Position numbers and translations under genes: made by a program
The notes under the pieces: generated by a model
Databases searched by the model: none
Told to the model about the DNA's origin: nothing
The model's input: only the letters and a program-made list of their open reading frames with translations
Shown here: positions 1 to 54,580 of the stretch, piece after piece
Position numbering within the stretch: the stretch's first letter is position 1
Layout of the letters: every line of letters starts with the position of its first letter
Assembly (NCBI GenBank): GCA_964454135.1
Contig: CAYVQL010000012.1
Span: forward strand, 11-64,010
Source of the DNA: an uncultured Enterobacterales bacterium
GTDB lineage: Bacteria; Myxococcota_A; UBA796; JAFGLY01
Direction: 5' to 3'
Length of the DNA: 64,000 nucleotides

Positions 1-183
1 GGCCTGCTCGACGGCGAGGAGGTCGACGAGCACGGCACCGATCCCCTGGCCGCTGACACGGACGAGGACGGCCTGCTCGACGGCGAGGAGGTCGACGAGC
101 ACGGCACCGATCCCCTGGCCGCTGACACGGACGAGGACGGCCTGCTCGACGGCGAGGAGGTCGACGAGCACGGCACCGATCCC
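1..183 (+). repeat. 69-bp coding tandem repeat, about 2.6 copies visible
   Basis: Identical units start at 1, 70 and 139 (ggcctgctcgacggcgaggaggtcgacgagcac...). Confidence 0.95.
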
Positions 184-459
184 ACGATCGCCGACACCGA
201 TGAAGGCGGCGTGCCAGATGGTGAGGAGATCGACCGCGGCAGCGACCCGCTGGATCCCACGGACGACTTCCCCGTGGAGGGCGACACCGGCGACGGCATT
301 GCCAAGGACGGCAGCTGCGGTTGCATCTCACCAGGATCGGTGTTCTGGCCGGGCGCTCTCCTGGGCTTGGTGCCGCTTGTTCTACGGCGAAGACGAGCAA
401 CGGTCCAAGTGAGGTCGACCTTGGGGATCAGGTCGATACTACTGCTGTTTCTTCTGTAG
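1..459 (+). CDS. 5'-truncated surface protein with acidic Ca-binding-type repeats and a MYXO-CTERM-like tail
   Basis: Frame 1 from base 1 reads GLLDGEEVDEHGTDPLAADTDED repeats (thrombospondin type 3-like DxDxDG), then GSCGC...ALLGLVPLVLRRRR; stop at 457-459. Confidence 0.75.
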   Translation, partial: GLLDGEEVDEHGTDPLAADTDEDGLLDGEEVDEHGTDPLAADTDEDGLLDGEEVDEHGTDPTIADTDEGGVPDGEEIDRGSDPLDPTDDFPVEGDTGDGIAKDGSCGCISPGSVFWPGALLGLVPLVLRRRRATVQVRSTLGIRSILLLFLL

Positions 460-571
460 TCACCGTTGAAGCCGGAGACCGGGATTGGCAGTGCGATGGA
501 GGCCTGGGAACGGTGCGCCCGGGCAGACACCGGCGCTGGACGCGCCTGCTGGCCCTCGTTACGGCCCGGCC

Positions 572-588
572 GGCAGCCTTCGGCTGCC
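572..588. terminator. Hairpin between convergent genes, possible terminator
   Basis: GGCAGCC-TTC-GGCTGCC just past the stop of the 618-aa gene; only a weak U-tract. Confidence 0.4.
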
Positions 589-605
589 TGTCTTCCCGAC
601 GACTG

Positions 606-2462
606 CTAGGCCAAGCTGCGGAGTACGGCCACTTTGAGCAGCTCCGATGGGGGAGGTGGCCGGCCCCCGGTGGGCCACTCCTGGCCGAGGAACCAGTTTG
701 CCACTTGCTCCCATGGTATCCAGTTGCGTTGGGAGAGCGCTCTCCAGTGTTCCTCGTAGGCGCCGTACCAGTCACCCGTCGGAGTGACGAAGCTGTGGAA
801 GCTCTCGTAGTGCGAGTGTTGGTTCCGGGTGAGTTGGGCGAACATCAGGAGCGCGCTGGCGGCGTGCCCCAGGCGAGCCGGCCCGTTGCCGCTGCCTGGG
901 TAGAGCGTCGCGGCGGCTCTGCTGATGATGCTGAGCGCCCGCTGGGCGGGTTCGGATCCTGTGCGCTGCTTCCACAGTTCATCGCCGAGCTTGTGGAGGT
1001 GTTGGGCGAGCTTGGGATTCCTGAAGAGCTGTGCTGTGGCGTACGGACCGTCGATCTTGAACGAGCGGTTCTTCCAGGCATACCACGCCCACAGGTGTTG
1101 TAGCGGAGCGTTGGAACGGCCCCACTTCCCATCCTTGAAGACCTTTCGGGCATCGAACCAGACCTCCAGCCTGTCACCGAGCAGGTGATACTGACTCGCA
1201 CGCTCCGGAGACCAGGAGTCATCACTCCAGAATTGGTTCTCAAAGAGCGCTTTGATCGGATCGGTTTTCTCGCGGCAGACCGGAAAGCTGTCCGTGGATG
1301 CGCTGCGCAGCCCGATGGCCAGAGCGATTCGCGCGATGTCTTGGCTGTTCGCCAGGGCCATCCCCAGAGCCTTGCCGAGCTCCTCTGCCTCAGCGAGTCG
1401 GCCTATGCGCCCGGGGATCTCCTTCGTGCGCGAGCCTCCCCGCTCCTGGATCCTGGCCGTGGCGAACTCCGCCAGCTCCGCCAGGGAGCCATCGCACCAC
1501 TTCTGCATGGCTTCGGGCTCGGACTTCTTGGTTCGGCTCTTCCTGACCGGGAAGAGGGCGCGTTTCTGCCGGTCCTGGAGTCTCTCTTCCCACGACAGCC
1601 AGCTGGTCTCGCCCCTGGCCGACGTGAAGGAGTACAGGACGCCTCTGCCGCTGGCCAGCTTGCCGAGCATATCTCTTGCGAACTCCTGGTTCCGCTCATG
1701 GCTGCCTTCAATCAGTCGATCCAGCAGCACGATGTCGTCGGGATTGGCTATCCGCAGCGCGGCATTGCGCTTCTTCTCAAGGCGGTTGATCTGGATGGCG
1801 AACACCGGATAGCGAGCGCTCCGGGGGCGGCCGAGGTGCTGTTCGAGGGCCTCGGCGATGTCCGTGACGTGGAGGTTCCAGGTGCGGACGGGCTTTGCCT
1901 CGTCGTCGAGCATCAGCATCTTCGGTGTGCGTGAGAGGCAGGACGCAAGGGCTTGCCCCCACTCACGGCGCGAGGCGTCCGGTGAGGGCAGGGTCTCCCA
2001 GATGACGCGCATCCGCTCGGGGGCGGATTCGCCACAGTCATCAGGGAGCACCACCAGGTCTCCCTCGAACATGCCGTGGCCACGGATGGCGTCCACGAGC
2101 TGGTCGGCGTGGGGGACCCACGCTCCGGATACCGCCAGGGCCCCGATGCGTGCCCCAGTCTCACCGTAGAAGGAATCGAGCCAGGCGACCAGCGCCGCGC
2201 ACACCCTCTGGTGGCGGCCTACGAGTCGTACGAGATCCTCGGCCCTCGGTCGCACCAACACCATATGGAGGAAAGGCCACAGCTGGTCCTGAGGACTCTG
2301 CGCTTCGCGCTGGTCGGCGCTGAGAAGGGAGGACTGCGCGATGGGCACCGCGGCCTGGATGCGAAGGTCGGCGTTCCAGTGAACGGGCAAGACGAACTCG
2401 GCGTAGGCCTGCTCGATCTCTTCGGGCATACGCTCGGCCTGGGCGAAGACAATCACGATCAT
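606..2462 (-). CDS. Hypothetical 618-aa protein, possibly with degenerate receiver-like segments
   Basis: Long ORF with protein-like composition; start overlaps the stop of the upstream 1185-aa ORF (ATGA); KMLMLDDE resembles a receiver beta1-acidic motif. Confidence 0.75.
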   Translation of the reverse strand: MIVIVFAQAERMPEEIEQAYAEFVLPVHWNADLRIQAAVPIAQSSLLSADQREAQSPQDQLWPFLHMVLVRPRAEDLVRLVGRHQRVCAALVAWLDSFYGETGARIGALAVSGAWVPHADQLVDAIRGHGMFEGDLVVLPDDCGESAPERMRVIWETLPSPDASRREWGQALASCLSRTPKMLMLDDEAKPVRTWNLHVTDIAEALEQHLGRPRSARYPVFAIQINRLEKKRNAALRIANPDDIVLLDRLIEGSHERNQEFARDMLGKLASGRGVLYSFTSARGETSWLSWEERLQDRQKRALFPVRKSRTKKSEPEAMQKWCDGSLAELAEFATARIQERGGSRTKEIPGRIGRLAEAEELGKALGMALANSQDIARIALAIGLRSASTDSFPVCREKTDPIKALFENQFWSDDSWSPERASQYHLLGDRLEVWFDARKVFKDGKWGRSNAPLQHLWAWYAWKNRSFKIDGPYATAQLFRNPKLAQHLHKLGDELWKQRTGSEPAQRALSIISRAAATLYPGSGNGPARLGHAASALLMFAQLTRNQHSHYESFHSFVTPTGDWYGAYEEHWRALSQRNWIPWEQVANWFLGQEWPTGGRPPPPSELLKVAVLRSLA

Positions 2463-5400
2463 GTTGATGAGTCCTTTTTATCGAGCGGAGCGCGTAGCGG
2501 AATTCTCCAACGGACGCACTTGGGTTGGGGCGACACCACGATGTCGTAGCCGCCGGTTGCATCGGGACAGCCCGAGGCTCGTAGCACGTCGCGAACCAGG
2601 CCGAGACCGCGTCCGCCGACACCGCCTGTGAGGCGGCCCGTGAGGGATTCCTCGATGCGCGCGAACCGTTGCGGGTCGACGTCGGGCTCATCGACGGTCA
2701 GGGCCCACACTTCGCCGAACCTGTTCCTCAAGACGCCCAGCTCGAGGACCAGGGGGGCCTCGCCTCGCGCATACCGGGCGGCGTTGTGGGTGAGCTCGGC
2801 GAGGACGAAGATCAGCGGATGAAGCTGAACCACTGGGTGGCGGACGACCGAGGCTTCGACCACTGGCGGCAACCGCAGCTCCACGGGACGGTTCGGGGGC
2901 GCGGGCACCTTCGCCGCGGCGACCGAGATCGAGTACGCGGCGTCGGTGCGCTGGAAGGCCAACAGATAGGCGATGTCCTCCAGGCTCGTGGACACCCTCC
3001 TCAATACCTCCCTGAACTCCCCGACCTCCTCCTCCCCCCACTTGCTCTCCTCGAGGAGGTGATCGAGGGACTGGATGCAGGCCAGCACGGTGGCGCCGTG
3101 GGGGCCGGCGACGCGATCCGTGAACTCGTGATCGTTCATCAAATCGGTGAGGAGTTTCCGCGCAGGAGCGGATAGCTCGGCGACATCGGACACCTGGGAA
3201 TCTGTGGTCAACTCCCGCAGGGCCTTGGCGGTGCCTCGTAGACGCTCGATTGGATTCGACCGTCGCAGAGAAGCGACCCTCGCCAGATACGTCAGCCAGG
3301 GGTCATCTCCAGTCGCGTCGAACCCGGCATGAGGCAGCCACGGCGCGACCCCCTCCTCCCATCTTTCTGGCCCGGGAAAGCCCACAGGCTGTCGCTCGGC
3401 GGCCAGCTCTGGGAAGGTCCTCCAGATCTCGCCCAGTGGTTCGAGCAGCTTGTCTCTCCAGCTCGACAGGGTCGCCATTCCACCGATCTCGAGGACGGTG
3501 AAACCCACCGCTCGGGAGAGGTGGAGCAATGCGGCCGCTCCCCTCTGGACGACCTGGAGCCCCCTGCCCATGCCGTATAGCACCACCTGCTGCGCACCGA
3601 CCTTGAGGAGCTTCTGCGTCACGGTCAGCAGCGGCACCAGTTTCTGCCGAGAGCCAGCGTCGTACGGCAGCGCGAGCCAGTGACCGGCGAGCGCCTTGAC
3701 GGAATGCTCTATCTCTTGAGGTGACGTCCCGTGAGCGATATGACTCGCCCAGCGCTCAAGCAGAGCGAGGTTTGGGGCAGGCTCATCGGCTGTGGACCGC
3801 AGGATCAAAAGGACCCTGATCTCGGAAGGGAACCGATCCCATGCCAGCGCTTCGTGGTCGAGTCGCTCTGGCCACTTCGCCTGCAGCGCTCTCCAAGCGG
3901 CATCGCGCTCACGTCCGGGAGCGTCGGGATCCCTCAGCAGGCTGACCAGCGCGTCTTCGGTTCGACGCTCGCGCCACGCAGATCTGAGGGCTTGGCCGCT
4001 CAGGCGAGGAGTGGAGTGCTGCTGAAACGCCTTGCCTTCGGCGCACAGGACATCGAGCAGGTCTGCAGGCCGATGGCCATCGAAGCCCTGACCTTGGTCC
4101 GGTTGCCGGCCTGGACTGTCTCGCCAGCTCTTGAACACCTGCCACGGATTCACGGCGCCGTCGATCTCAAGAAGCTGCGCGACATCCTGGAGCGCCTCTG
4201 GGAATCCCGTCGCGCAGAGTGCGAGATCACGTAGAAACACCCGCTGAGGAGGTGTTCGCGCTCGGCTCGCGGATGCGAGCTCGAGCGATAGGCGTTCCAG
4301 GATCCAATGGCGACATACCTGGCACCCGCTCGCGCTGTGGCCTGCTGCCATCCGCATGACTGGAGACAGGAGGCGGCCATAGGGATCCCAGCGGCGGATT
4401 TGAGGCCGTCGCGCTCCTTCGAAGTACGAGAACCACCAGTCGTGATCCACTTCTACGTGCCGTCCCTCGACGATCGAGCGCGTCGCGCCCGCCAGGTACT
4501 GGGCGATGAGCCGTCTTTGACGGGGATAGCCCAAAGGGAGTTTCCGTGGATTGCTCCGAAAGACAAGCTCCCAAGCCCTGGATTGCGGTTCGCCAGCGCA
4601 AGGTGCCATGCGCCCAAGCGCGTACGCGGCGACGGGGACGAGGGGCGCTGCGCTCGTATGCAGGGCATCAGCCGGTCTGCGCCATAGGGACAATGCCGTG
4701 GTCGAGGCTTGCTTCCAGGCTGCGCTGCTGGCAGCGGGGAGATCGGGCCGAAGACCGGCCGCGGTCCAGCTCGCGGCCAGGTTCGTCAACGACATGGGCC
4801 AGCTGACGCCACGTCGGTACAGGAAACTCAGCTCCCGCAGGCGGTGACGCAGGCGGTCCTGGTACTGGTCGAAGACGTGATGGCCTGCGTGCTCGGTGTG
4901 CAGTCCGGTCTCATTTGCGATGGCACTGATGCCTCGCAAGTCCTTGAAGAGGGCCTTCACCGACTCCGGACGGATGCCCTGCGCCCGCTTGCCGGTCTTC
5001 ACCGCGATGGTGGCAGCGCCGGGGAGCGAGAAGCAGTCTGCCAGCTGCTGGTCGGTCGGCTGGTCCAGGCTGGCCGCTTCCTCCACTCCGCCGCTGGAGC
5101 AGATCTTGCAGAACTCGGCAAAGGCCCAGTGGCGGACCCGCTCGGCGGGATGACGCGCGAGATGACGGAGGACTCCCCACCCTCGGGGCAAGGTCCACCA
5201 GAGACCAGCGTCGAAGAGAGCCAGCCTCTCGAGAACGTTGGGGCGGTTCGATTCGCGTCTCCACCAGCCGCTCCAGGTGCCCCGCATGTTCTTGATGAGC
5301 GTGGAGTCGTAGCCACCGTCGCTGTACTCGTGGACCACGGAGTCGGCTCCGTAGCGCGCCGCCCCGGCCAGCATCTTCTCGAACAGCTGGTGGTCTTCGG

Positions 5401-6016
5401 CAATGCAGCACGCCACGAGGCGCGGGCAGACTTCGTCGTGACCGATGTCGAAGCCCTGGATGCGGAATTCCAGGCCCGATGTGCCGACGACCTCCATGAG
5501 CGTCCGCACCTCGACGAGTCGCCATTGGCGACGTCCGCGATGCTGTTCCCCGCCCCAACAGGTTTCTGACAGCAGCCGGCTCAACAAGTACCAGATTCCC
5601 CGTGGCTGCCCTCGGCTCGGCCGGGTTGCTCGCACGAGCACATCGGGTCCGCCGGGAGCTACGAAAATTGGGATTCCCGGCCTTGAAGGTGGTGGAAAGT
5701 CCGATAGGCAATAGCAAAGCCGGACGGTGCGCTGGGCGTCCTCCGTTGCCACGAGCCACAGCCCGGCTGATATCTCTCCCACGAACCAGGCCTCTTCCGC
5801 CGGGGGACCTGCCGGGTGGCGCGCTGCGGGCTGCGGGGGCTCCGCCAGTTTTTGCCTTAGGAAGAATCCCCAGATGGAGCAGCGTTGTCGGGGGGCGAGG
5901 TCGCGGAAGAAATGCCTCGCCCGGTCGCGGTCCATTCTCTGCGTGCTCAGGGATGCGGGATCCGGGAGCGTGCTCATCGTGGGTGTCAGCGGCAGGTGGA
6001 CTGGCGTACGGGGCAA
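2459..6016 (-). CDS. 1185-aa protein with C-terminal histidine-kinase-like (HATPase_c) domain
   Basis: N-box ELTHNAARY, G2-like GGRGLGLV, possible H-box DHEFTDRV; GAGGAG RBS before TTG at 6016; no obvious TM segment. Confidence 0.75.
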   Translation of the reverse strand: MPRTPVHLPLTPTMSTLPDPASLSTQRMDRDRARHFFRDLAPRQRCSIWGFFLRQKLAEPPQPAARHPAGPPAEEAWFVGEISAGLWLVATEDAQRTVRLCYCLSDFPPPSRPGIPIFVAPGGPDVLVRATRPSRGQPRGIWYLLSRLLSETCWGGEQHRGRRQWRLVEVRTLMEVVGTSGLEFRIQGFDIGHDEVCPRLVACCIAEDHQLFEKMLAGAARYGADSVVHEYSDGGYDSTLIKNMRGTWSGWWRRESNRPNVLERLALFDAGLWWTLPRGWGVLRHLARHPAERVRHWAFAEFCKICSSGGVEEAASLDQPTDQQLADCFSLPGAATIAVKTGKRAQGIRPESVKALFKDLRGISAIANETGLHTEHAGHHVFDQYQDRLRHRLRELSFLYRRGVSWPMSLTNLAASWTAAGLRPDLPAASSAAWKQASTTALSLWRRPADALHTSAAPLVPVAAYALGRMAPCAGEPQSRAWELVFRSNPRKLPLGYPRQRRLIAQYLAGATRSIVEGRHVEVDHDWWFSYFEGARRPQIRRWDPYGRLLSPVMRMAAGHSASGCQVCRHWILERLSLELASASRARTPPQRVFLRDLALCATGFPEALQDVAQLLEIDGAVNPWQVFKSWRDSPGRQPDQGQGFDGHRPADLLDVLCAEGKAFQQHSTPRLSGQALRSAWRERRTEDALVSLLRDPDAPGRERDAAWRALQAKWPERLDHEALAWDRFPSEIRVLLILRSTADEPAPNLALLERWASHIAHGTSPQEIEHSVKALAGHWLALPYDAGSRQKLVPLLTVTQKLLKVGAQQVVLYGMGRGLQVVQRGAAALLHLSRAVGFTVLEIGGMATLSSWRDKLLEPLGEIWRTFPELAAERQPVGFPGPERWEEGVAPWLPHAGFDATGDDPWLTYLARVASLRRSNPIERLRGTAKALRELTTDSQVSDVAELSAPARKLLTDLMNDHEFTDRVAGPHGATVLACIQSLDHLLEESKWGEEEVGEFREVLRRVSTSLEDIAYLLAFQRTDAAYSISVAAAKVPAPPNRPVELRLPPVVEASVVRHPVVQLHPLIFVLAELTHNAARYARGEAPLVLELGVLRNRFGEVWALTVDEPDVDPQRFARIEESLTGRLTGGVGGRGLGLVRDVLRASGCPDATGGYDIVVSPQPKCVRWRIPLRAPLDKKDSST

Positions 6017-6040
6017 TCGCCGCTCCTCGATGAATTAAAG

Positions 6041-6069
6041 TTGACGGCCTGTCTCGCCGATAGTAGATT
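6041..6069 (+). promoter_or_regulatory. Sigma70-type promoter
   Basis: TTGACG (6041-6046), 17-nt spacer, TAGATT (6064-6069); AT-rich tgaattaaag just upstream. Confidence 0.6.
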
Positions 6070-6073
6070 CAGA

Positions 6074-6138
6074 GTCAGCAATCGGGTCAGCTCGTTGCTG
6101 GCCTACACCAGAAGCCCCCGCATGGGGGCTTTTCTTTG
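6074..6138 (+). ncRNA. Candidate ~65-nt small RNA (5' stem-loop plus intrinsic terminator)
   Basis: GTCAGCAA...TTGCTGGC stem at 6074-6102 directly after the -10 box, 8-nt linker, then terminator; no ORF. Confidence 0.45.
6110..6138 (+). terminator. Rho-independent terminator
   Basis: AGAAGCCCCC-GCAT-GGGGGCTTTT followed by CTTTG. Confidence 0.75.
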
Positions 6139-6581
6139 TTCTGTGCTGCCATAGCATCTGCGCCACGCCTGGTCCAAGCGCATACCGGATTGAGGCCATG
6201 TGCTCGGGTCGCATCGCCAGGGCTCAGCCGGGGGCCAGGCCCTGCTCCTCCGGATCGCCCAGGGCCGCGAAGACGCGCTTTGACAGCTCGTGCTTGCCGG
6301 GCAGTACCATGGCGGCCTCCTCCTGGTGCTCCCAGGCGGCAGCGCCCTCACCATCCTCCACCAGCGCCAGTCCCAGCTCGGTACGGATCCGGCCGCTCTC
6401 GGTGAGCACCCGGGCCTTGCGCTGGAGGTTGGCGAGGGCCGCAGGGAGTGGGGGAAACCGCTCCAGAGTGGGCTCTCCCTGGAAGCTCCGATTGGCCTGC
6501 GCCTCCAGCTCCCCTGCGCGCCACGGATGCGCACGGCCAGCAACCCATCAGGGATTCACGCTCACCCCGCCGGAGGCGCCC

Positions 6582-7799
6582 CTACCGGTCGCTCAGGGTG
6601 GCCAGGAAGGTCACGATGGCGGCCTCTTCCTCGGGAGTGAGGCCCAGGTCGCCCAGCTCGTCGCGGTTGACCGTGGTGGGCACCTCGGGCGGGTGCCAGC
6701 AGTCCTGGTTCTCTTCTTCGTCCTTGCAGGCGGGCTTGGTGTCGCGCGTGTTGTAGAAGTGCACGATGGCCGCCAGGGAGTGGAAGGTGCCGTTGTGCCC
6801 GAAGGCCTTGGCGAAATCAGCGTCGGGGCGCCGGTCCACATTGCGCAGGGTGGGCACCTTGACCTTGCCCAGCTCCGCCTGCCAGACCTCTTCGGGGTGG
6901 TCCGCCTCGCGCAGGGCGCCGCCCAGGCCCTCATCGATCCAGGCCTGGCCCTGGGGATTGAACTCCGCGGACATGGCGTAGAAGGGATTCTCCGGGTTCT
7001 TCGGCAGGCCCAGGTTGTCGTAGGTGAAGTCCGTGAAGAGGGGGGGGTCGCCCTGCTCGTCGGGGCGCGAGGGGTGGCAGTCGGCGCACAGCGCCTTGCC
7101 CTCGAAGAGCGCCAACCCTGCCAACTCTTGCTCGCTGAGCTGCTCGGTGCCCGCCAACCAGGCGTCGTAGCGAGAGGAGAAGGGATTCACCTCGGCGGAG
7201 CGCTCGAAGGCGGCGATGTCTCTGCCGATGTGGGCGTAGGCCTCTTCCGCGTTGGTGGCGCAGTCCAGGCTCTGGGCGCCGTGCAGCAGGCGGAAGCGCT
7301 CCGCGTAGGGCGCGGACGACAGCTTGGCGCAGAGGGCCGCGGCGTCCGGCAGGTTGTGCTCGAGGGGGTTGAGGAAGGGGCCCTGGGCCTGCTCGGCCAG
7401 GGGGTCGCCCAGCACTTCGCCGGTGGCGCGCCCGTCCCAGAACATGCCCCCGATCCATACCCCCTCTTCTTCGTCGAAGTGGAGCTTCGGGCTGGAGCCG
7501 GCGTAGGCGGCCGCCGGGGGCTTGCGGTTGCCGAAGCGCCCCGGCTGGGCGCCCTCGTAGACGGAGCCGGGGACGTTGAGGAGGGGATCGGGGCCCGTGA
7601 AGCCCACTTCGGGCCCGTGGCAGGCGGCGCAGGCCTGGCCCTCGGGTTCCGAGAGGCTGCTGTCGAAGAAGAGGAGCTTGCCGAGCTCCTCGGCGGTGGG
7701 CGGGCTTGGCTGCGGGACGGTTTCTTCAGCGCTGGCTGCGGGCGCCTGCTCCTTGGGGCAGCCCTGCAGCAGGGCCAGCAGGGCGATGGTTCGGGTCAT
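6582..7799 (-). CDS. Di-heme cytochrome c peroxidase (CCP/MauG family), probable lipoprotein
   Basis: LGKLLFFDSSLS, CAACH, FWDGRA, QAQGPFLNPLE, CADCH, KVPTLRNV, HNG; N-terminal LLQGC. Confidence 0.9.
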   Translation of the reverse strand: MTRTIALLALLQGCPKEQAPAASAEETVPQPSPPTAEELGKLLFFDSSLSEPEGQACAACHGPEVGFTGPDPLLNVPGSVYEGAQPGRFGNRKPPAAAYAGSSPKLHFDEEEGVWIGGMFWDGRATGEVLGDPLAEQAQGPFLNPLEHNLPDAAALCAKLSSAPYAERFRLLHGAQSLDCATNAEEAYAHIGRDIAAFERSAEVNPFSSRYDAWLAGTEQLSEQELAGLALFEGKALCADCHPSRPDEQGDPPLFTDFTYDNLGLPKNPENPFYAMSAEFNPQGQAWIDEGLGGALREADHPEEVWQAELGKVKVPTLRNVDRRPDADFAKAFGHNGTFHSLAAIVHFYNTRDTKPACKDEEENQDCWHPPEVPTTVNRDELGDLGLTPEEEAAIVTFLATLSDR

Positions 7800-7935
7800 G
7801 ATGGACTCCTGCTCCGGGGAGAGAGACGTCTACCTCCCGCCGGCTCCGAAGACACCCGTGATGACTGTCGCGGGGGGGTGATCGAATGCAGAGAGGGGAT
7901 GGGTAGCATTGGCGTATCCCCGCCAAGTACGACAA

Positions 7936-9432
7936 TCATCGCGGCCCACCCGACGCGCACGAGATCCCCAGGTCTGGGACGCACGAGGAGCAACGATGAA
8001 CCACACGACGTACTGATCCCGCGTGGCCATCTGGGAGCGAGCGGGATGCCTTGCGCAGCGTGCCCCGTTCGCCGGACGAGGCGTCCACGACGACGAGCTC
8101 GCCATCTCGGACGGATGCGATCGCGCCTGGCGCGGCGATGAGGCAGGGGATGCCCATCTCACGGCTCACCGCCGCGGCGTGGCAGGTCACGCCGCCCTCC
8201 TCGGTGACGATGGCCCCTGCGCGCTGGTAGGCCTGGACGTAGTCCGGGGTCAAGCAGCGCGTCACGACCACGTCGCCCGGCTCGACCTGGAGGCAGTCTT
8301 CGGGGCTCCTCAGGATCCGAGCCCGTCCCTGGTGGACGCCGCCGCTCGCCACCTGCCCCTCCACCGGCCCGGCCTGGCGCCTGGCCGGCATGCCTCCTGC
8401 CCTGGTGGCCGCGACCCGGTGCGGGCGCACCTCCGTTGCGCCGCCCTTCAACTCCACGGCGAAGCCGCCCTGGCGCTGAGCGATCTTCTCGCGCAGAGCG
8501 TCGCCACGCGCCTCGTTCTCCAGGAACGCTTCGATCTCGTCGGCGGCCAGGTGGAGCAGACCGTCGTAGTCGGTCCCGGTCCTTTCCGCGATGCACGAGA
8601 GAACGGGGCGCATGAAATGGGCGGAGCGTTCCAACGCGTTCTTGCGGTGCTCTCTGAGCAGGACGAGCGGATCGATGGGGACGCGAGGTCGCCTGCGTGA
8701 CGGGCGGGGCCTGGAGAGGTCTGCGGCCAGGCGGAGGAGCAACTGGTCGCGGGACCAAGGAGAGCCGGCGAAGTAGGACAATCCCAGCCAGTCGTAGGCC
8801 TCCAGGTGCGTGTCGATGGAGCGCTGGAGCCGGGATGGGAGCGGCCCGCGCGCTCCGTTCCGCACCTGGGCCGACAACAGGCCGTCGCGCGCCACGCATC
8901 GTAGGATCCGCTCGTAGGCCTCCGCCTCCTCGGCAGCCAGGCTCCGCGAGGCGCGCAGGTCCGGATCCAGTCCGGGATCGTCCAGCTGGAGGACCCCTTG
9001 GAAGGAGCCGAGCTGGTGCAGCACATCGTCGAGGGCGGCCGGGAAGACGACGAGGAAAGGCATCACGGCCGTCACCGCCTCCGTCCAGGAGCTCCAACTC
9101 CGGCGGAGATCGTCGTCGCACGTGGAATCCGGGTCGCCGGTGCGGAGCGAGCCCAGCCGCTGCGACCGGCGGATGAGCTCGTTGCTGCGCCTCCAGCACC
9201 GGTTGCAGAACGACACCAGGTACGTCTGCTCCGTGGTCAAGCGGCTGGAGAGGTGCGTGCGCAGCCGAGCCAGGTCCTCCGCGCGATAGGACACGTTTCC
9301 ATCTTCGAGCCTGCGCGCGCCGAGCTGGAAGGGGATGTCCAGCGCTGTGGCCAAGGGGGCCCCGAGGCCCCGCAGCACGAGGGTCTCGAAGAGAACCGGG
9401 ATCGGTCTGTTCAGCTTGTCCTGCCAGGTCAT
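7936..9432 (-). CDS. PEP-utilizing enzyme subunit: helical substrate-binding region plus phospho-His swivel domain
   Basis: C-terminal GAIVTEEGGVTCHAAAVSREMGIPC and GELVVVDA; no ATP-grasp motifs. Confidence 0.85.
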   Translation of the reverse strand: MTWQDKLNRPIPVLFETLVLRGLGAPLATALDIPFQLGARRLEDGNVSYRAEDLARLRTHLSSRLTTEQTYLVSFCNRCWRRSNELIRRSQRLGSLRTGDPDSTCDDDLRRSWSSWTEAVTAVMPFLVVFPAALDDVLHQLGSFQGVLQLDDPGLDPDLRASRSLAAEEAEAYERILRCVARDGLLSAQVRNGARGPLPSRLQRSIDTHLEAYDWLGLSYFAGSPWSRDQLLLRLAADLSRPRPSRRRPRVPIDPLVLLREHRKNALERSAHFMRPVLSCIAERTGTDYDGLLHLAADEIEAFLENEARGDALREKIAQRQGGFAVELKGGATEVRPHRVAATRAGGMPARRQAGPVEGQVASGGVHQGRARILRSPEDCLQVEPGDVVVTRCLTPDYVQAYQRAGAIVTEEGGVTCHAAAVSREMGIPCLIAAPGAIASVRDGELVVVDASSGERGTLRKASRSLPDGHAGSVRRVVHRCSSCVPDLGISCASGGPR

Positions 9433-9454
9433 CGTCGCCTCCTTCCATCGCTGG

Positions 9455-10291
9455 TCACCGGTTCAGAGGTCGGGCTTGCACCACGTGGAGATCGCTCGCG
9501 ATGGCGAACTCGATGTCCTGCGGCGTGCCGAAGAAGCGCTCCACAGCGACGCCAGCGGCCAGCAGCGCGTTGAGCTCGGCCGAGGTCAGCGCGCATTGTC
9601 GGCTCACTGGCCGGCGGCGCAGGGCGCCAGCCTCGACGACCATCGCCTCGCGCTGCGCTCCGGGCGAGAAGGAGCGCTCCTGGGGCCAGGCGCGGTCCAG
9701 CTGGTACTGGGTGGGAGTGAAGGCCCCCGCGACCTGCCCGTCGGCCAATCCCTCGCAGACCTCGATGATCGTTCGGCCGCTCGGAGGGAAGCGGGTGTAC
9801 ATCACCCCCGCTTTGCTGGCCGGTACGAGCTCCTGCACCAGCACGGCCATGGCCTCTCCGCCGAGGTCCAGGCCGAGCCGCTCGGCGTAGAGCCGCGCCG
9901 CATCGCCCGTCAGCGAATGCCAGACCGCCTCGACGGCCTCGACGAAGCCGGCGGCATCCCGGATCCCGAGCAGGGAGACGAATACGCCGGCGAAAGAGGC
10001 TTTGGCCGAGTCTTCGCAAGTGGCGCTGGAGCGCACGGCGAGCGGCGGCCGCAGCTTGTCCAGGGCCTGGAACCAGAGCTCAGTCATGCTCTCCGGAGGG
10101 CGCCCGCGGTGGGGGCTCCCAGCGGCGCCCGCCGGATGGCGCAGCATCCGCTCGTGTTGGACGGGGATGGCGAAGCCTGGCGGGATCTTGGCCACACCCG
10201 CTTGGTGGAGCTGCGCCAGCCTGGCGGCCTTGGCGCCCGCCAGCGCCTGCTCGCGGCAGGTGGGATCGGACAGCTGCAGGATCGGTTGCAT
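9455..10291 (-). CDS. Stand-alone PEP/pyruvate-binding (PPDK_N, ATP-grasp) subunit
   Basis: Likely start ATG 10291 (MQPILQL, TGATG overlap); GAKAARL, PPGF, AVRSSATCEDSAKASFAG, MAVLVQELV, QDIEFA, VQARP. Confidence 0.88.
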   Translation of the reverse strand: MQPILQLSDPTCREQALAGAKAARLAQLHQAGVAKIPPGFAIPVQHERMLRHPAGAAGSPHRGRPPESMTELWFQALDKLRPPLAVRSSATCEDSAKASFAGVFVSLLGIRDAAGFVEAVEAVWHSLTGDAARLYAERLGLDLGGEAMAVLVQELVPASKAGVMYTRFPPSGRTIIEVCEGLADGQVAGAFTPTQYQLDRAWPQERSFSPGAQREAMVVEAGALRRRPVSRQCALTSAELNALLAAGVAVERFFGTPQDIEFAIASDLHVVQARPLNR

Positions 10292-11811
10292 CACGTCGCA
10301 CCTCCCGCGCTCGCGACATCCAGCCTGTTCACCCTTCCGAGCGTGGCGTCCACCTCGACGAGCTCCCCGTCCTCGAGGGCGTCCATCAGTCCCTCGATGC
10401 CGACGATGCAGGGGAGACCGAAGTCGGCGGCCACCTGAGTGGCGTGCTGCGTCAGCCCGTGCTCGCTGGTCAGGATGGCCCTGGCCTTGGCGATGATGGG
10501 CATATAGGCCTCGGTCGTGCGATAGGCTGCGAGGACGAAGCCTTCGCCGGCTCGCGCGATGGCGGCCGAAAGGTCGGAGGCCTTCAGGACCGGACCCATG
10601 ACCTTCCCAGGAGAGGCGACCGTACCCCGCAGCACAGCCAGGTCGCGCATCGATCGCGACTCGCCGAGCTCCTGCTGGATGATCCGCCGCGCCTCGGCGC
10701 CGACCGCGAAGCGCTCCCGACCGCCGGCCAACCAAAGGAACAGCTCCTGGCGCCCCCGCAGCTCGTCTTCCGGGCAGCTTCGGGTCGCGAGCAGATCGCG
10801 GAAGTCCTGGAACAGCATCTGCTCGGTCAAGGCGGGTTCGAAGTCGAAGCGCCGGGCCACTCGCTGGCGGAAGTGGCCGTAGCTCCAGCTCGAACGGGAG
10901 ACCAGCCCGGACTCGTACTCCTTCAGGGCGATCAAGCGGGACAGGAGGTGGCAGTGGGCGCCCAGCTCGTCGTCTGCGGTCAGCTTCGAGCAGAGGTTCC
11001 GCACCTCTTCTCTGAGTTCCTCGTGCACGACGGTGTGCGGGCGTTCCTTCTCCCGCAGCTCTCGCCGCAGCTCGGAGAGCAGGGCCTCCAGGGTCAGCTC
11101 GGGCCCGATCCACTTGTAGGGCAGCCACTTCCAGCTACGCCTGTAGCCCTCGATCCGGCCCATCAGCAGGGGAAAGGATGGCAGCTCTTCCAGGATGGTC
11201 TCGTCGTCTGGCTGCTGGAAGAGCGCGAGGGCGGCCGGATCGGCCTGGATCGCCGTCAGGATCGGGCGCCGTTCCTCACGGGCGCGTTGGGCCCACGAGG
11301 GCTGTCGCGGCAGGGTGAGCCGAGATCGGCACGCAGCGCCCAGTTCGAGCGGCGCGTTCCAGGTGCCCAGGAGCTCTTCGATGCGAGCGTCTATCCGCAG
11401 CTCCAGGCCTGGAGCCAGCAGGATCAGCGGCACGGAGGAGAGGCTCAACGCGTGGTAGGACCGCGCGAAGCGGTCCAGCGAGTTGGTCCAGTCGCCCTCG
11501 GCGGCCTGCCCCAGCCGAGAGGCGGCGCCGTCCAACTGGCGCGCGCGGCGACGGCCGATGCGGTCGAACTCCTCCAGGCGGGTCGGTTCCACCAGCATCG
11601 GCAGGGCCGAGGTGGAGAACGCAGCTACCTCCCCCTCGACGAAGTACTTGCGGGACGTGCCTCGTTCCCAGTAGTGCAGCGCCCCCACCTGGACGCCCCA
11701 TTCCTCCTGGAAATCGACCGAGAGCAGAGGCCTGAACTTCTCGCAGGTCAGGCCTGGCGCGGAGCGCCCGGAGGCGCCTCGATTCTGGAGCCAGAGATAC
11801 CATGATTTCAT
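10291..11811 (-). CDS. Second PEP-utilizing enzyme subunit with phospho-His swivel domain
   Basis: LRGTVASPGKVMG, AILTSEHGLTQHATQVAADFGLPCIVG, GELVEVDATLG. Confidence 0.85.
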   Translation of the reverse strand: MKSWYLWLQNRGASGRSAPGLTCEKFRPLLSVDFQEEWGVQVGALHYWERGTSRKYFVEGEVAAFSTSALPMLVEPTRLEEFDRIGRRRARQLDGAASRLGQAAEGDWTNSLDRFARSYHALSLSSVPLILLAPGLELRIDARIEELLGTWNAPLELGAACRSRLTLPRQPSWAQRAREERRPILTAIQADPAALALFQQPDDETILEELPSFPLLMGRIEGYRRSWKWLPYKWIGPELTLEALLSELRRELREKERPHTVVHEELREEVRNLCSKLTADDELGAHCHLLSRLIALKEYESGLVSRSSWSYGHFRQRVARRFDFEPALTEQMLFQDFRDLLATRSCPEDELRGRQELFLWLAGGRERFAVGAEARRIIQQELGESRSMRDLAVLRGTVASPGKVMGPVLKASDLSAAIARAGEGFVLAAYRTTEAYMPIIAKARAILTSEHGLTQHATQVAADFGLPCIVGIEGLMDALEDGELVEVDATLGRVNRLDVASAGGAT

Positions 11812-12106
11812 GTCGAATTCCTTGTCGGGTCTTGAATCGAGAGAGGACTGTCAGCTGGCCTTCGGAGGCTTGGAGGGGACTGCGTTGGGTCTTCTTCTTC
11901 CAGATACAAGTTGTGTTCAGCGCGTTTTTTCGGTGGCCCCGGTCGGGCGCGGCTGCCTGGGCGTCGCTCTCGGCCCTGTTCAGGGGGCGTCCAGCTGCTC
12001 GAGGAGGAGGGCCCGGGCGAGGGGAGCGATCCGGGAGACCACCTGGGTGCGCTAGGGCAGGTCGTCGTCGCGTAGGCGGTCGCGCTCCGGGAGGCTACGC
12101 TAGCGC

Positions 12107-12892
12107 ATGTCCCTCACCCCGATCACCGCCGTGGCGCTGGCAGTCCTTGTGACGCCCGCAGCCCTTGCGGGCGGCCCGGCGGATGTGGGCGGTTGGATCC
12201 GCTCTGCGGGCGTGCGCCCGGAGGCGCGCGCCCGCATGCAGGCCTGGGCGGACGACGACCAGCGCGTGACCGAGGCCTTTGCCGAGAGCTTTCCCGCCTG
12301 GGTGCAGGGTCGCATCGCCGCGGCGGTGGATCGCCGCCTCCCGGGCGCCGACACAGCCTGCGAGCCCAACATCCAGGTGGGCTTCGTAGAGCCCGACTCC
12401 GTGGCTGAGACCAAGGCGGACCGAGCCTTCGAGCGCAGCACCTTCCAGGTCGAGACCCTGCACTGCCTGGACCACGGCGACGCCGCGCGGGCCATGGCCA
12501 TCTACAACTCCCAGGCCTTCCGGGAGGCTGTGATGCCGGGCCTGGAGCGCTACTGGCGCGAGGACGAGAACGTCTGCCTGGCCACGAGCGCGGTGGTTGG
12601 CATCGTCGGGCGGACCGAGATCTGCCTCGCGTCCCGTGAGTATGGGGGGGAGGGGGTGCGCGCCTTCCACACCCGGCTCGTCGAGAGCGCTGACGCCCCG
12701 GGCGCCCAGGGGGTCTTCTTGCGGGAGAGCGTCGTCGCCTTCGTCGACCGCGCCGAGGGCGGGGTCGCGGTCTTCCGGATCGTCTACACACGCGGAAAGG
12801 ACATGGGCGCGCTGCAGCGCAGCGTCCTCGGTCGCGTGGCGGGCGGCTCCCAGGAAGACATTGCAGAGGCCCTGGAGGAGCAGCTCCGCTGA
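12107..12892 (+). CDS. Hypothetical secreted protein
   Basis: Signal-peptide-like N-terminus (AVALAVLVTPAALA); high-GC3 codon pattern. Confidence 0.75.
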   Translation: MSLTPITAVALAVLVTPAALAGGPADVGGWIRSAGVRPEARARMQAWADDDQRVTEAFAESFPAWVQGRIAAAVDRRLPGADTACEPNIQVGFVEPDSVAETKADRAFERSTFQVETLHCLDHGDAARAMAIYNSQAFREAVMPGLERYWREDENVCLATSAVVGIVGRTEICLASREYGGEGVRAFHTRLVESADAPGAQGVFLRESVVAFVDRAEGGVAVFRIVYTRGKDMGALQRSVLGRVAGGSQEDIAEALEEQLR

Positions 12893-45551: not shown

Positions 45552-46285
45552 CAGCGGCGCTGCAGGCGCATCAGCAGGGTCAGGATGTTCCAGAACAGGA
45601 TCAGCACGCCCATGGTGATCATATAGGCGCCCTCGACGTGCATGTCCGTGCGCAGGCGGTGCAGCACCTGGTTGACCTGGTAGAGCAGGCCGGCCGCCGA
45701 GACGATCACGAAGAGGCCCGAGACGGCGATGCCGATGGGGCCGCCGATGGGGTAGACGAAGCTGATGCCCATCAGGATGAGCATGGGCAGGAAGAGCATG
45801 GAGAGCCCGGCCTTCACGAAGGAGAGCTCTCGCGGGTTGGCCCACAGGTAGATCACCATGCCGAAGGCCGTCAGGCCGGTCAGGGCCAGGGCCTCCATCA
45901 CCAGCAGGAAGGGATTGCCGAAGAGCGATGCGCCCATCAGCATGGCGGCCAGCAGCAGGTAGCCCATGGCGATGCCCTGGAAGACCGCCCCCATGGCGAA
46001 GCCCAGCCAGCGGGCGGCCCCGCCGCTGAAGACCACCTTGCCAGCGACGTAGTTGGCGATGCCGTAGGAGCCCAGGATCACCACCAGGGAGATGATCCGG
46101 CCTTGCAGGAAGGGCAGCAGGTAGACGGCGCCGGCCGAGATCATGCCCGTGGCCATGGACAGGAAGAGGCCGGCGGCCGTCAGAAGCGCCACGCGCTTGA
46201 GATACTCGATGCGTTCGCTGGGAACGGCCTGGGCGAGGGGACGGGCGGCTGCAGCTGGAAAGGCCATCGGTTCCTCCTTTTCCAC
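45551..46285 (-). CDS. Bax inhibitor-1/YccA family membrane protein
   Basis: About 7 TM helices, RIEYLKRV, LLYQVNQV, LFWNILTLL C-terminus. Confidence 0.8.
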   Translation of the reverse strand: MEKEEPMAFPAAAARPLAQAVPSERIEYLKRVALLTAAGLFLSMATGMISAGAVYLLPFLQGRIISLVVILGSYGIANYVAGKVVFSGGAARWLGFAMGAVFQGIAMGYLLLAAMLMGASLFGNPFLLVMEALALTGLTAFGMVIYLWANPRELSFVKAGLSMLFLPMLILMGISFVYPIGGPIGIAVSGLFVIVSAAGLLYQVNQVLHRLRTDMHVEGAYMITMGVLILFWNILTLLMRLQRR

Positions 46286-46337
46286 CGGGTGGGAGTGCCC
46301 CTATCCCGGCACCGGAGCGAGAGGTAGCCGGGCGAGC

Positions 46338-48722: not shown

Positions 48723-49236
48723 GGTCGTCCTCCGGGTTGGTGGGCTGCAGCAGGGCTGCGAGGCGGCGGATCAGGGCTTCGGGATCGGGGATGCGCTGGG
48801 GGTCAACGCTGAGAACCACGCCAGGAGCCAGCTCGGCGGCCAGCCAGCGAGCGGGTTCCACCGGCGCGGGCCGTGCGGGCGGCGGCGCGGCCTCGTGGGC
48901 GAGCGCTTCGCCCACTGCGACTTCCAGCTGTGCGGTGGGGGCGCCTGCCAGGGCCTGCTGACACTGGGCCAGCGAATGACCCTGGCCCTGCAGCAGCTTG
49001 ACGCAGACCGCCTGCAGCAAGCTGCGGTAGCCGTAGATGGCGCGGCGCCCGTCGTAGCGCACAGGGCGGTCCATCAGGCCCAGGGTCTGGTAGTAGCGCA
49101 GGGTGCGGACGTCCGGGAGCTGCGCCACGCGCTCGTCCTCGATGCCGGTGGCGTCGGCGAGCAGCGCGCCGGCCTCGTCGACCAGCGCTTGGAGCGCGAA
49201 CTCCCGGTCTCTCAGCGCTTGCAGGGGGTGGGTCAT
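48697..49236 (-). CDS. MerR-family HTH regulator (copy 1)
   Basis: PDVRTLRYYQTLGLMDRP...YG..LLQ..K.LQ.QG.SL. Confidence 0.88.
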   Translation of the reverse strand: MTHPLQALRDREFALQALVDEAGALLADATGIEDERVAQLPDVRTLRYYQTLGLMDRPVRYDGRRAIYGYRSLLQAVCVKLLQGQGHSLAQCQQALAGAPTAQLEVAVGEALAHEAAPPPARPAPVEPARWLAAELAPGVVLSVDPQRIPDPEALIRRLAALLQPTNPEDDHERNRTDD

Positions 49237-49242
49237 GGGCAC

Positions 49243-49271
49243 ACTGTAAAAGTAACAGTAATTACTGTCAA
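49243..49271 (-). promoter_or_regulatory. Sigma70 promoter with palindromic operator (copy 1)
   Basis: Minus strand TTGACA-N17-TACAGT; perfect palindrome ACAGTAATTACTGT at 49255-49268. Confidence 0.75.
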
Positions 49272-49424
49272 CGAAAAACTGAGCCTTCCGGCCCATATGA
49301 CTGGCTGGACCCGGCAGGAACGGGGTAGGGGTTCTGGATGGCGTGTCGCGCCATTCGGCAATGGCTCCGCCGGTCTTTCCGTTCCACGCGCCGGCGAGGC
49401 GCTTTCAATCGAGGGAGTGACGAC

Positions 49425-50000
49425 ATGAAGTACTTGGCTGCTGGTACGGCGATTCTGCTGGCATTGGGGCTCGGCTGCGCGGGCATGGGTGGAGGCGAGT
49501 TCACCTGCGAGGCGGACAGCAAGGCGTCCTCGCTGACGACCCCCTACAACGACATGTGCCTGCAGATCGGGGATGGCGAGGTCGAGCAGGACGGCACGGT
49601 GCTGCTGGCGGCCTGGGAGGACGGCGACGTCTCGGACGTCACCGAGGAATGGAACGAGAGCATCGAGGGCATGGGCTGGACCTGCACCGAGACCCTGGTG
49701 GAGGGCGCTGAGGGCTCCGATGCCGAGATCCACACGGTCAAGATCTACCAGAAGGATGGCACCGACGTGGGCTTCCTGACGGGCCAGGTCGAGGACGACG
49801 GCACCACCTACGCCTTCGTCTACATGGAGAACATCTCCGACAACTCCGAGGACTTCAAGGAGGACCGCGGCAAGTCCCGGCGCGAGAACGTGCGCAATCG
49901 CCGCCCGGGCAGGAAATCCGGCAAGAAGTCCTCTGGCAAGAAGTCCGGCTCGAAGAGCCGTACGGGCAAGGGCAAGGGCAAGGGCAAGGGCAGGCGCTAG
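49425..50000 (+). CDS. Acidic lipoprotein with basic Lys/Gly-rich tail (copy 1)
   Basis: GGAG RBS, MKYL...LGLGC lipobox, ends GKGKGKGKGRR. Confidence 0.8.
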   Translation: MKYLAAGTAILLALGLGCAGMGGGEFTCEADSKASSLTTPYNDMCLQIGDGEVEQDGTVLLAAWEDGDVSDVTEEWNESIEGMGWTCTETLVEGAEGSDAEIHTVKIYQKDGTDVGFLTGQVEDDGTTYAFVYMENISDNSEDFKEDRGKSRRENVRNRRPGRKSGKKSSGKKSGSKSRTGKGKGKGKGRR

Positions 50001-50006
50001 CCCCCA

Positions 50007-50030
50007 CGAGGCCCCGGCAGCGGGGCTTCG
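50007..50030 (+). terminator. Probable terminator hairpin (copy 1)
   Basis: CGAGGCCCCG-GCAG-CGGGGCTTCG just after the stop. Confidence 0.5.
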
Positions 50031-50140
50031 CCTTCGATTTCGTCTCCCCGCCGAGCGTCTGAGGCGCTGGCGGGGTGGACTGTCGTTCGCGCTGCGACTG
50101 GCGTATGATCCTGTTCGTCTTCCCTGCGCGAGGGCCCAGC

Positions 50141-50626: not shown

Positions 50627-50859
50627 TTGGCGATGCCGTAGGAGCCCAGGATCACCACCAGGGAGATGATCCGGCCTTGCAGGAAGGGCAGCAGGTAGAC
50701 GGCGCCGGCCGAGATCATGCCCGTGGCCATGGACAGGAAGAGGCCGGCGGCCGTCAGAAGCGCCACGCGCTTGAGATACTCGATGCGTTCGCTGGGAACG
50801 GCCTGGGCGAGGGGACGGGCGGCTGCAGCTGGAAAGGCCATCGGTTCCTCCTTTTCCAC
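50596..50859 (-). pseudogene. Truncated second copy of the BI-1/YccA gene
   Basis: N-terminus identical to 45551..46285 up to NYVAGK, then RPQP*. Confidence 0.9.
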
Positions 50860-50911
50860 CGGGTGGGAGTGCCCCTATCCCGGCACCGGAGCGAGAGGTA
50901 GCCGGGCGAGC

Positions 50912-53810: not shown

Positions 53811-53816
53811 GGGCAC

Positions 53817-54574: not shown

Positions 54575-54580
54575 CCCCCA

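What the first reader, a model, noticed from the sequence alone, without database searches (positions are those of the whole stretch)
606..6016. Orphan giant histidine-kinase-like protein coupled to an unrecognised 618-aa partner: candidate new signalling or conflict module
Seen: two ORFs overlapping by ATGA. The 1185-aa protein has no evident TM segment and a long helical, Trp/Arg-rich N-terminal region with no family I recognise. It ends in a kinase-like module with H-box-like DHEFTDRV, N-box ELTHNAARY and GRGLGL, but the G1 DxGxG box is replaced by DEPD. The partner has receiver-like hydrophobic-acidic strands (MIVIVFAQAE, KMLMLDDE) but no HTH output. By eye the region has more A/T at third codon positions than recBCD. 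Known: HATPase_c domains use N/G1/G2 boxes, and divergent kinase/receiver pairs occur in biological conflict loci. Inference: a laterally acquired cytoplasmic sensor-effector pair, possibly for defence.
Basis: partly seen in the sequence, partly recalled or inferred. Interest (0 to 1): 0.72.

Follow-up and report, generated by a model that had tools for sequence, protein, structure and literature searches.

The report
Rare kinase-like sensor with receiver-effector partner
Two overlapping genes, found together in only one other of the genomes searched, encode a giant protein ending in a degenerate histidine-kinase-like module and a partner with a likely receiver (phosphate-switch) domain plus an unknown tail; together they likely form an undescribed alarm-and-response system, possibly against phages.

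Summary
ORF A (1185 aa, 2459-6016, minus) and ORF B (618 aa, 606-2462, minus) overlap by ATGA, have no TM segment, have lowish GC3 and pass no Pfam, NCBIfam, PADLOC or PDB cut-off. The pair is conserved: one other genome (same order, other family) has both genes full length, about 32% identical, with the same 4-nt overlap and different neighbours. It occurs in 2 of 182 class and 2 of 401 phylum genomes searched.

A ends in a DHp-HATPase-like module: N and G2 boxes kept, G1 loop lost. B's best-conserved part is most likely a receiver (D186/D187, D248, T280; region-specific AUC 0.83); TIR is a weaker rival. B's helical tail keeps an RxxxxH (HEPN-like) motif.

The layout resembles the anti-phage system Detocs, but it is not a member: no DtcA homology outside the kinase domain, no RHG histidine, no separate DtcB, no PNP. 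A's first 900 aa and B's tail are unassigned. Defence is inferred, not shown.

The parts
2459..6016 (-). ORF A, 1185 aa, soluble giant protein ending in a histidine-kinase-like module
   Evidence: full-length orthologue P0004, 32% identity, E 1.3e-120
3302..6016 (-). A residues 1-905: unassigned Trp-rich region, putative sensor; 20-38% identity to the orthologue in every 60-aa block
   Evidence: No significant Pfam hit; no usable ESM Atlas hit for orthologue residues 1-880; identity profile
2942..3154 (-). A residues about 955-1025: DHp-like helical hairpin; His963 (3128-3130) not conserved, His986 (3059-3061) conserved
   Evidence: BLAST to a canonical kinase, E 2e-5 for a single comparison; alignments
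2483..2839 (-). A residues about 1060-1178: HATPase_c-like domain; N1078, G2 glycines 1135/1137/1139 and G1155 in register; G1 DxGxG replaced by DEPD
   Evidence: hhalign E 2.7e-4 against a kinase profile; Pfam HATPase_c E 0.25, below cut-off; the top two non-self hits in the own genome are kinases
606..2462 (-). ORF B, 618 aa, start overlaps the stop of A (ATGA)
   Evidence: orthologue L001:4622-6451, 32% identity, E 3e-73, GTGA overlap
1983..2462 (-). B residues 1-160: unassigned domain, alpha/beta by eye, without receiver acids (pseudo-receiver or inactive TIR; undecided)
1473..1931 (-). B residues 178-330: probable receiver domain; D186, D187, D248 (1719-1721), T280 and K312 invariant in the pair; W288 and E292 also invariant (TIR-like reading)
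   Evidence: residues 241-300 are 63% identical, the best block of either protein
606..1430 (-). B residues 345-618: unassigned, probably helical, putative effector; invariant R530-L-G-H533 and R546-x4-H551 (810-827)
   Evidence: no Pfam, PADLOC or PHROG match over cut-off
6023..6028 (-). Shine-Dalgarno-like GAGGAG, 6 nt before the TTG start of A
534..609 (.). About one third of a 200-nt CTAG-ended repeat (MITE-like) whose end overlaps the stop codon of B; fuller copies on C298, C199 and C74

Best explanation
The two overlapping genes are a conserved pair that likely works as a two-component-derived alarm system, in which giant protein A would sense a cytoplasmic trigger and control the predicted receiver domain of B, which would release B's likely toxic tail, probably as anti-phage defence in the manner of Detocs. 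Shown: gene pair, 4-nt overlap, conservation in a second genome, no TM segment, N and G2 boxes, loss of the G1 loop, non-conserved His963, and invariant D186/D187/D248/T280 and RxxxxH. Inferred from profiles: GHKL ancestry of A's C-terminus (fairly firm) and receiver identity of B 178-330 (moderate). Inferred only: sensing by A 1-905; phosphorylation of D248, either through a relocated histidine (His986 or His779 are the invariant candidates nearest the ATP domain) or with A acting as a His-less controller; effector activity of B's tail (HEPN-like RNase is the leading guess); the defence role.
For: Pair conserved full length with the same overlap and different neighbours. Patchy: 2 of 182 class genomes, 0 of 9 others in the window's family, 1 of 4 in the orthologue's genus; 2 of 401 phylum genomes. 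A's C-terminus matches a kinase profile at E 2.7e-4, other A regions at E 0.35-0.39. B 178-330 ranks 115 receiver domains above 2000 background windows with AUC 0.83, against 0.37-0.53 for B's flanking regions and 0.47 for B12-binding domains. Unsupervised glocal alignment puts DD, D and T (and K in the orthologue) on the receiver's conserved columns. The AF2 model of this region shows alternating strands and helices (mean pLDDT 45). The ESM Atlas's best look-alikes for the orthologue of A are Y4jQ clusters (0.96, 206 shared features) and HisKin-conflict (0.91). The likely y4jQ locus is a big protein + REC + REC-PNP operon, which is the Detocs layout in 10.1101/2023.01.24.525353 (section 7 read). 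DtcA-type proteins also lack a DxGxG box and carry a displaced His, and the paper reports that the conserved His of DtcA is needed for defence, so a lost G1 box need not mean a dead kinase. Toxin-antitoxin-type genes (PIN_10 and DUF433) lie about 0.55-1.7 kb after the orthologous pair, and a PDC-S01 match 5.5 kb after it.
Against: Only two independent loci are known. His963 is Glu in the orthologue and no DtcA-type RH[GQH] motif is among A's invariant histidines. The Atlas likeness disappears when the kinase part is left out. hhalign finds no A-DtcA match (E 0.03-0.83) and no match of B to DtcB or the DtcC receiver (E 0.19-0.5). Receiver support is weak per sequence: hmmsearch E 0.35-0.4, hhalign E 0.1, and in the glocal test 545 of 2000 controls beat B and 21 of 2000 beat its orthologue. 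The fold searches gave nothing significant. No PADLOC hit in 12 of 12 window neighbours scanned. The RxxxxH motif has no profile or fold support, and the orthologue has Met at its second position.
Confidence: 0.45

Rival explanations
1. A non-defence signalling pair: A is a DivL-like pseudokinase scaffold that binds B's phosphorylated receiver and relays a developmental or stress signal, and B's tail is a protein-binding output rather than a toxin.
For: His963 is not conserved and the G1 loop is lost. A's ATP domain scores better against canonical kinases (E 2.7e-4) than against DtcA (E 0.033). No defence genes among the window neighbours scanned. Repurposed kinases that sense a response regulator are known (PMC4211667 and 10.1101/812529, search listing and start of abstract only).
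Against: Regulatory networks are usually kept by close kin, yet the pair is missing from 9 of 9 other genomes of the family searched (completeness 78-98%) and sits in unrelated neighbourhoods with reduced GC3. No PAS or other usual sensor domain was detected.
Confidence: 0.25
2. B's central domain is a TIR (NAD-cleaving or signal-making) enzyme with catalytic Glu292, perhaps behind an inactive TIR at its N-terminus, and A is a kinase-fold ATPase sensor that activates it without phosphotransfer.
For: The best non-self hit of the B-centre profile in 182 genomes is a ThsB-type TIR (E 0.0014 per genome). B 216-335 aligns to a TIR profile with few gaps, with W288/E292 on the W-x-x-x-E helix and FPV on the next strand. 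hhalign gives TIR E 0.02-0.035 against REC E 0.1. Foldseek rank 6 is a TIR (E 0.09) and rank 7 a response regulator (E 0.10). B 1-175 scores above 1997-2000 of 2000 controls on the TIR profile.
Against: One hit at E 0.0014 among 182 genomes is expected by chance about 0.25 times. TIR windows score above background against every region of B (AUC 0.60-0.74), so that signal is not region-specific, whereas the receiver signal is. On the TIR profile 243 and 1056 of 2000 controls beat the two central regions, and 369-481 beat the orthologue's N-terminal domain. The invariant DD strand and the upstream kinase module fit a receiver better.
Confidence: 0.17
3. A decaying or idiosyncratic two-component operon with no special function.
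For: Degenerate catalytic motifs, only two loci, and a repeat remnant at the 3' end.
Against: Both frames are open and full length in two genomes at about 32% identity, with conservation peaking at the ATP domain (45%) and the receiver core (63%). This pattern points to long purifying selection.
Confidence: 0.05

Closest known systems
Detocs (DtcA sensor kinase, DtcB stand-alone receiver, DtcC receiver-effector; 10.1101/2023.01.24.525353). The NGR234 locus NGR_RS31475/31470/31465 (probably y4jQRS; PADLOC PDC-M60A/B/C) has this layout.
   Same: Giant (1040-1170 aa) protein with a C-terminal kinase module and a degenerate G1 box, directly followed by receiver gene(s) whose output is not an HTH; patchy occurrence; ESM features of the whole protein alike (0.96).
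   Different: Two genes, not three. No detectable homology to DtcA outside the ATP domain; no RH[GQH] histidine about 250 aa before the N box; no separate DtcB; the receiver is internal in B behind another domain; no PNP, REase, TOPRIM or hydrolase effector detected. A typical Detocs-type operon exists in another genome of the same order (G106) and is not homologous to this pair. Equating y4jQ with NGR_RS31475 and PDC-M60 with Detocs is my inference from position, size and layout; no call labels them so.
Canonical HisKA-HATPase_c sensor kinase plus response regulator (NtrB/NtrC type)
   Same: DHp-like hairpin, N box, G2 glycines, kinase gene overlapping a downstream receiver gene.
   Different: No TM or known sensor domain, His not conserved, G1 DxGxG lost, no HTH or AAA output, all below Pfam cut-offs.
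DivL-type pseudokinases (PMC4211667; listing and abstract start only)
   Same: Kinase fold without a conserved phospho-His that could act by binding a receiver.
   Different: DivL is a membrane-anchored PAS protein in a conserved cell-cycle network (recalled); this pair is soluble, rare and self-contained.
HisKin-conflict (Pfam PF22561)
   Same: Atlas look-alike at 0.91 (163 shared features); divergent kinase in conflict contexts.
   Different: The Pfam model finds no match in this genome at E up to 1.

Membership tests
HisKA/HATPase_c histidine kinase | N box Asn and G2 GxGxG in register | tested here: met
   N1078, G1135/1137/1139 and G1155 fall in the conserved columns in both orthologues; hhalign E 2.7e-4
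HisKA/HATPase_c histidine kinase | G1 box DxGxG | tested here: not met
   E1110 sits in the Asp column and both glycines are missing, in both orthologues
HisKA/HATPase_c histidine kinase | Conserved H-box histidine | tested here: not met
   His963 in the window (with a 9-residue insertion after it), Glu927 in the orthologue
HisKA/HATPase_c histidine kinase | Pfam HATPase_c score over cut-off | tested here: not met
   12.2 bits against 26.4 (window); HATPase_c_2 14.2 against 27.4 (orthologue)
HisKA/HATPase_c histidine kinase | GHKL (Bergerat) fold | not tested
HisKA/HATPase_c histidine kinase | ATP-dependent autophosphorylation | not testable with these tools
   needs an assay
Receiver (REC) domain | Acid pair after strand 1, phospho-Asp after strand 3, Thr/Ser after strand 4 (motif set recalled; checked against a profile of the genome's own receivers) | tested here: met
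   D186/D187, D248 and T280 are invariant and are placed on those columns by unsupervised alignment in both orthologues
Receiver (REC) domain | Lys after strand 5 | tested here: inconclusive
   K312 is invariant in the pair alignment but is placed on the Lys column only in the orthologue, after a 10-residue insertion
Receiver (REC) domain | Significant profile match and (beta-alpha)5 fold | tested here: inconclusive
   No Pfam hit; hhalign E 0.1; AUC 0.83 enrichment; model pLDDT 45 with only generic alpha/beta matches
Detocs | DtcA homology | tested here: not met
   No PDC-M60A hit for A or its orthologue while the NGR234 and G106 proteins hit at E 1.9e-67 and 7.7e-50; hhalign against a 10-sequence DtcA-type alignment E 0.03-0.83
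Detocs | Conserved phospho-His (RH[GQH]) 245-257 aa before the N box | tested here: not met
   Present in 10 of 10 DtcA-type proteins; A's invariant histidines nearest the N box lie 1, 92 and 299 aa before it and lack that context
Detocs | Separate stand-alone receiver gene (DtcB) | tested here: not met
   A overlaps B directly in both loci; B 1-160 against the DtcB profile E 0.5
Detocs | Receiver fused to a known killing effector (PNP, REase, TOPRIM, TM hydrolase) | tested here: inconclusive
   No Pfam or PADLOC hit on B's tail and no match to DtcC (E 0.35), so PNP is unlikely; the tail's fold is unresolved
Detocs | Anti-phage activity that depends on phosphotransfer | not testable with these tools
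   needs phage challenge
TIR domain (ThsB/TIR_2) | W-x-x-x-E helix with catalytic Glu, and profile match | tested here: inconclusive
   W288 and E292 invariant and in register, but scores are not significant and not region-specific
HEPN RNase | R-x4-6-H motif in a helical domain (motif recalled) | tested here: inconclusive
   R546-x4-H551 invariant in 2 of 2; no HEPN-family Pfam hit; model too poor to test the fold

The most novel reading that the evidence does not exclude
A second, independently built family of defensive two-component systems: a 900-aa sensor of no known family drives a kinase module that has lost its canonical His and G1 box, and switches a three-domain partner in which an atypical receiver gates a new HEPN-like nuclease, with the buffer function of DtcB replaced by a fused N-terminal domain.
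Probability: 0.3. Interest if true: 0.78.

Novelty: new variant of a known kind. Interest (0 to 1): 0.52.

Why it matters
Detocs is the one tested defence system I found in print that is built on kinase-receiver phosphotransfer. A compact two-gene system with the same logic but unrelated sensor and effector would show that this logic arose more than once. It would also supply about 900 aa of new sensor and 270 aa of new effector, and pose a clean biochemical question: how a kinase module with no conserved H-box His and no G1 box controls a receiver. Two natural orthologues at 32% identity make point mutants easy to choose. Its weight is limited by rarity (two loci) and by the absence of any functional or confident structural evidence.

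Tried and rejected
Family and structure libraries. Pfam, NCBIfam, PADLOC, PHROGs and PDB sequence scans of A, B, their orthologues and sub-regions gave nothing over a cut-off.

Homologue searches. The word-indexed search with B alone or the B pair returned only B and missed even the known orthologue, so it is insensitive here. The A C-terminal profile among longer proteins returned only the two known proteins. No match in plasmids or viral contigs. Of the five weak B-centre hits (E 0.001-0.04), four are short and look like chance and one is a TIR. No paralogues in the own genome.

Structure. Single-sequence AF2 of B had pLDDT 36 and its fold search was uninformative (best Z 5.2). The two-sequence model of B's centre had best Foldseek E 0.011 and best Z 6.4, all generic alpha/beta folds. 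A was not folded. The complex predictor was not available, so A-B binding is untested.

Rejected readings. His963 as a family-wide phospho-site (Glu in the orthologue). Membership of Detocs. Y4jQ likeness as whole-protein homology (lost without the kinase part). An attC-like cassette reading of the repeat at 534-609 (its copies are 200-nt CTAG-ended elements). Misassembly.

Other. No RNA holder listed. Rfam gave no match at gathering level in 300-6700. The y4jQ literature search gave one irrelevant paper. Burroughs and Aravind 2020 (J Bacteriol), which may describe related kinase-receiver conflict systems, was not held, so overlap with its systems and supplements is unchecked. The supplement tables of the Detocs preprint (effector list, Table S5) were not seen.
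Full report
Observation. ORF A (2459-6016, minus, 1185 aa, TTG start with GAGGAG 6 nt upstream) and ORF B (606-2462, minus, 618 aa) are real and overlap by ATGA. Neither has a TM segment. Both are Trp-rich, and Arg is ordinary for this genome. GC3 is 0.76 and 0.81; 5.4% and 16% of 2539 long coding-like ORFs lie at or below these values. A 12-kb contig from a public run matches 562-12616 without a difference, though that run may be the assembly's source. The host is an 11.8-Mb, 69% GC genome held by marine metagenome runs of one study. A myxobacterial identity is likely from the MYXO-CTERM-like neighbour (sub-cut-off hit), but no call names it.

Conservation. phmmer over 1.84 billion representatives returns A itself and one relative, P0004 (1151 aa, 32%, full length). 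Its locus in genome G011 (same order, other family; L001, identical to metagenome locus L005) carries an orthologue of B directly downstream, 32% identical over the whole length, with a GTGA overlap. The flanking genes differ. Here they are a TSP3-repeat protein and a cytochrome c peroxidase. There they are a radical SAM gene and a small secreted-type ORF upstream, and DUF4476 and a PIN/DUF433 pair downstream. The pair profile finds 2 of 182 class genomes (plus one weak hit to an ordinary kinase at E 1.4e-4) and 2 of 401 phylum genomes; it is not found in 9 other genomes of the window's family. So the pair is an old, selected, very rare unit in non-syntenic positions.

Protein A. The last 230 aa derive from a DHp-HATPase_c module. 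hhalign to a profile of the genome's own kinases gives E 2.7e-4, while other parts of A give 0.35-0.39. The two best non-self hits of this region among 78,353 own-genome ORFs are kinases. Pfam HATPase_c is below cut-off. N1078 and the G2 glycines are in register. The G1 Asp column holds Glu1110 and both G1 glycines are missing, in both orthologues. Invariant histidines near the module are H986, H1077 and H779. Residues 1-905 match nothing but keep 20-38% identity throughout.

Protein B. The pair alignment shows three parts. Residues 241-300 are the best-conserved block of either protein (63%). D186/D187, D248, T280 and K312 are invariant. An unsupervised glocal alignment places DD, D and T on the receiver's conserved columns in both proteins, and K only in the orthologue. 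Single-sequence scores are weak (545 and 21 of 2000 controls score as high). A pooled test is clearer: the 178-330 profile ranks 115 receiver domains over 2000 background windows with AUC 0.83, while B's N- and C-terminal regions give 0.37-0.53, and B12-binding, hydrolase and AAA domains give 0.47-0.55 (family members are not independent, so I do not rely on the p-values). A TIR reading, one strand-helix unit further along, fits W288/E292 and the FPV strand and gave the best outside hit. But TIR windows score above background against every part of B (AUC 0.60-0.74), so I rank it second. AF2 with two sequences gave alternating strands and helices at pLDDT 45, and the fold searches were inconclusive. 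The N-terminal 160 aa have no receiver signal; B, but not its orthologue, scores high on the TIR profile. The C-terminal 270 aa look helical in a poor model and keep RLGH and R-x4-H. The latter is the HEPN signature as I recall it, and it has no profile support.

Comparison with known systems. The ESM Atlas's nearest clusters to the orthologue of A are Y4jQ (0.96) and HisKin-conflict (0.91). On pNGR234a, the ORF that fits y4jQ by position and size is followed by a lone receiver and a receiver-PNP gene, and the three match PADLOC PDC-M60A/B/C. This is the layout of Detocs in 10.1101/2023.01.24.525353 (abstract and sections 7, 27, 28 read). There, defence needs the DtcA His, the DtcC Asp and the effector, and a minority of operons carry other effectors. 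Ten DtcA-type proteins all lack DxGxG and carry an RH[GQH] His 245-257 aa before the N box. Our pair fails membership: no PDC-M60 hit, hhalign E 0.03-0.83 for A and 0.19-0.5 for B, no such His, no separate DtcB. The Atlas likeness vanishes without the kinase part. A typical Detocs-type operon occurs in G106 of the same order, so the two kinds coexist in this lineage. Passages of PMC8195603, PMC9503650 and PMC7824862 describe receivers in conflict systems that work without kinases. A figure legend of PMC13092281 lists HATPase and REC among domains of predicted, unvalidated defence systems. None of the passages seen describes this pair. A search for kinase + receiver + HEPN + anti-phage terms found no paper.

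Mechanism. Most likely (0.45): A senses a cytoplasmic cue with its large N-terminal region and, through the kinase-derived module, changes the phosphorylation or binding state of B's receiver, which frees a toxic C-terminal domain. Whether A still transfers phosphate through a relocated His, as DtcA appears to, or acts as a His-less controller is open. The defence role rests on architecture, patchiness, GC3 and the toxin-antitoxin neighbours of the second copy; 12 of 12 window neighbours scanned had no PADLOC hit. Rivals are a regulatory pseudokinase pair (0.25), a TIR effector (0.17) and decay (0.05). Binding of A to B could not be modelled because the complex predictor was not available.

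Verdict. A real, conserved, undescribed and very rare module that probably works like a defensive two-component system without being Detocs. New variant of a known kind; interest 0.52.

Noticed in passing
window 6041-6140 (+): A sigma-70-like promoter (TTGACG-17-TAGATT) points away from gene A and is followed within 45 nt by two hairpins, the second a strong U-tailed terminator (fold z -4.4). This could be a transcript of about 65 nt. No Rfam match at gathering level and nothing alike seen by eye upstream of the orthologue.
   Followed up: partly
window 534-609; G000 C298:3895-4097, C199:12020-12225, C74:7444-7620: Family of about 200-nt repeats ending in CTAG (MITE-like). The window holds only the first 76 nt, overlapping B's stop codon.
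   Followed up: partly
window 1-459 (+): TSP3-repeat protein with a MYXO-CTERM-like end that runs 20 residues past the usual poly-Arg tail, which may mark an insertion junction to the left of the module.
   Followed up: no
window 46037-50612 and 50611-55186: Perfect (100%) 4576-bp tandem duplication covering several genes; either a recent amplification or an assembly artefact.
   Followed up: no
window 7936-11811 (-): Three adjacent genes that together resemble a split PEP-synthase/dikinase: two with the PEP-utilising mobile domain and one with PPDK_N, all with long unassigned N-termini.
   Followed up: partly
L022:4082-8972 (G106): Typical Detocs-type operon (PDC-M60A match, lone receiver, receiver followed by a PNP-like domain) beside PD-(D/E)XK-like and mobile-element-like genes in a genome of the same order.
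   Followed up: partly
L026 (G087:C562:10069-13278): Cluster of at least three small TIR proteins next to a gene ending in a Wadjet JetD-like domain (by eye).
   Followed up: no
G000 contigs C80 and C380: Several large TIR_2 proteins clustered on one contig (five matches on C80, two on C380).
   Followed up: no
L001 (record CAZFLE010000207.1): The record title says Enterobacterales, but the genome search places the same contig (G011) in the window's order, so the title is probably wrong.
   Followed up: no
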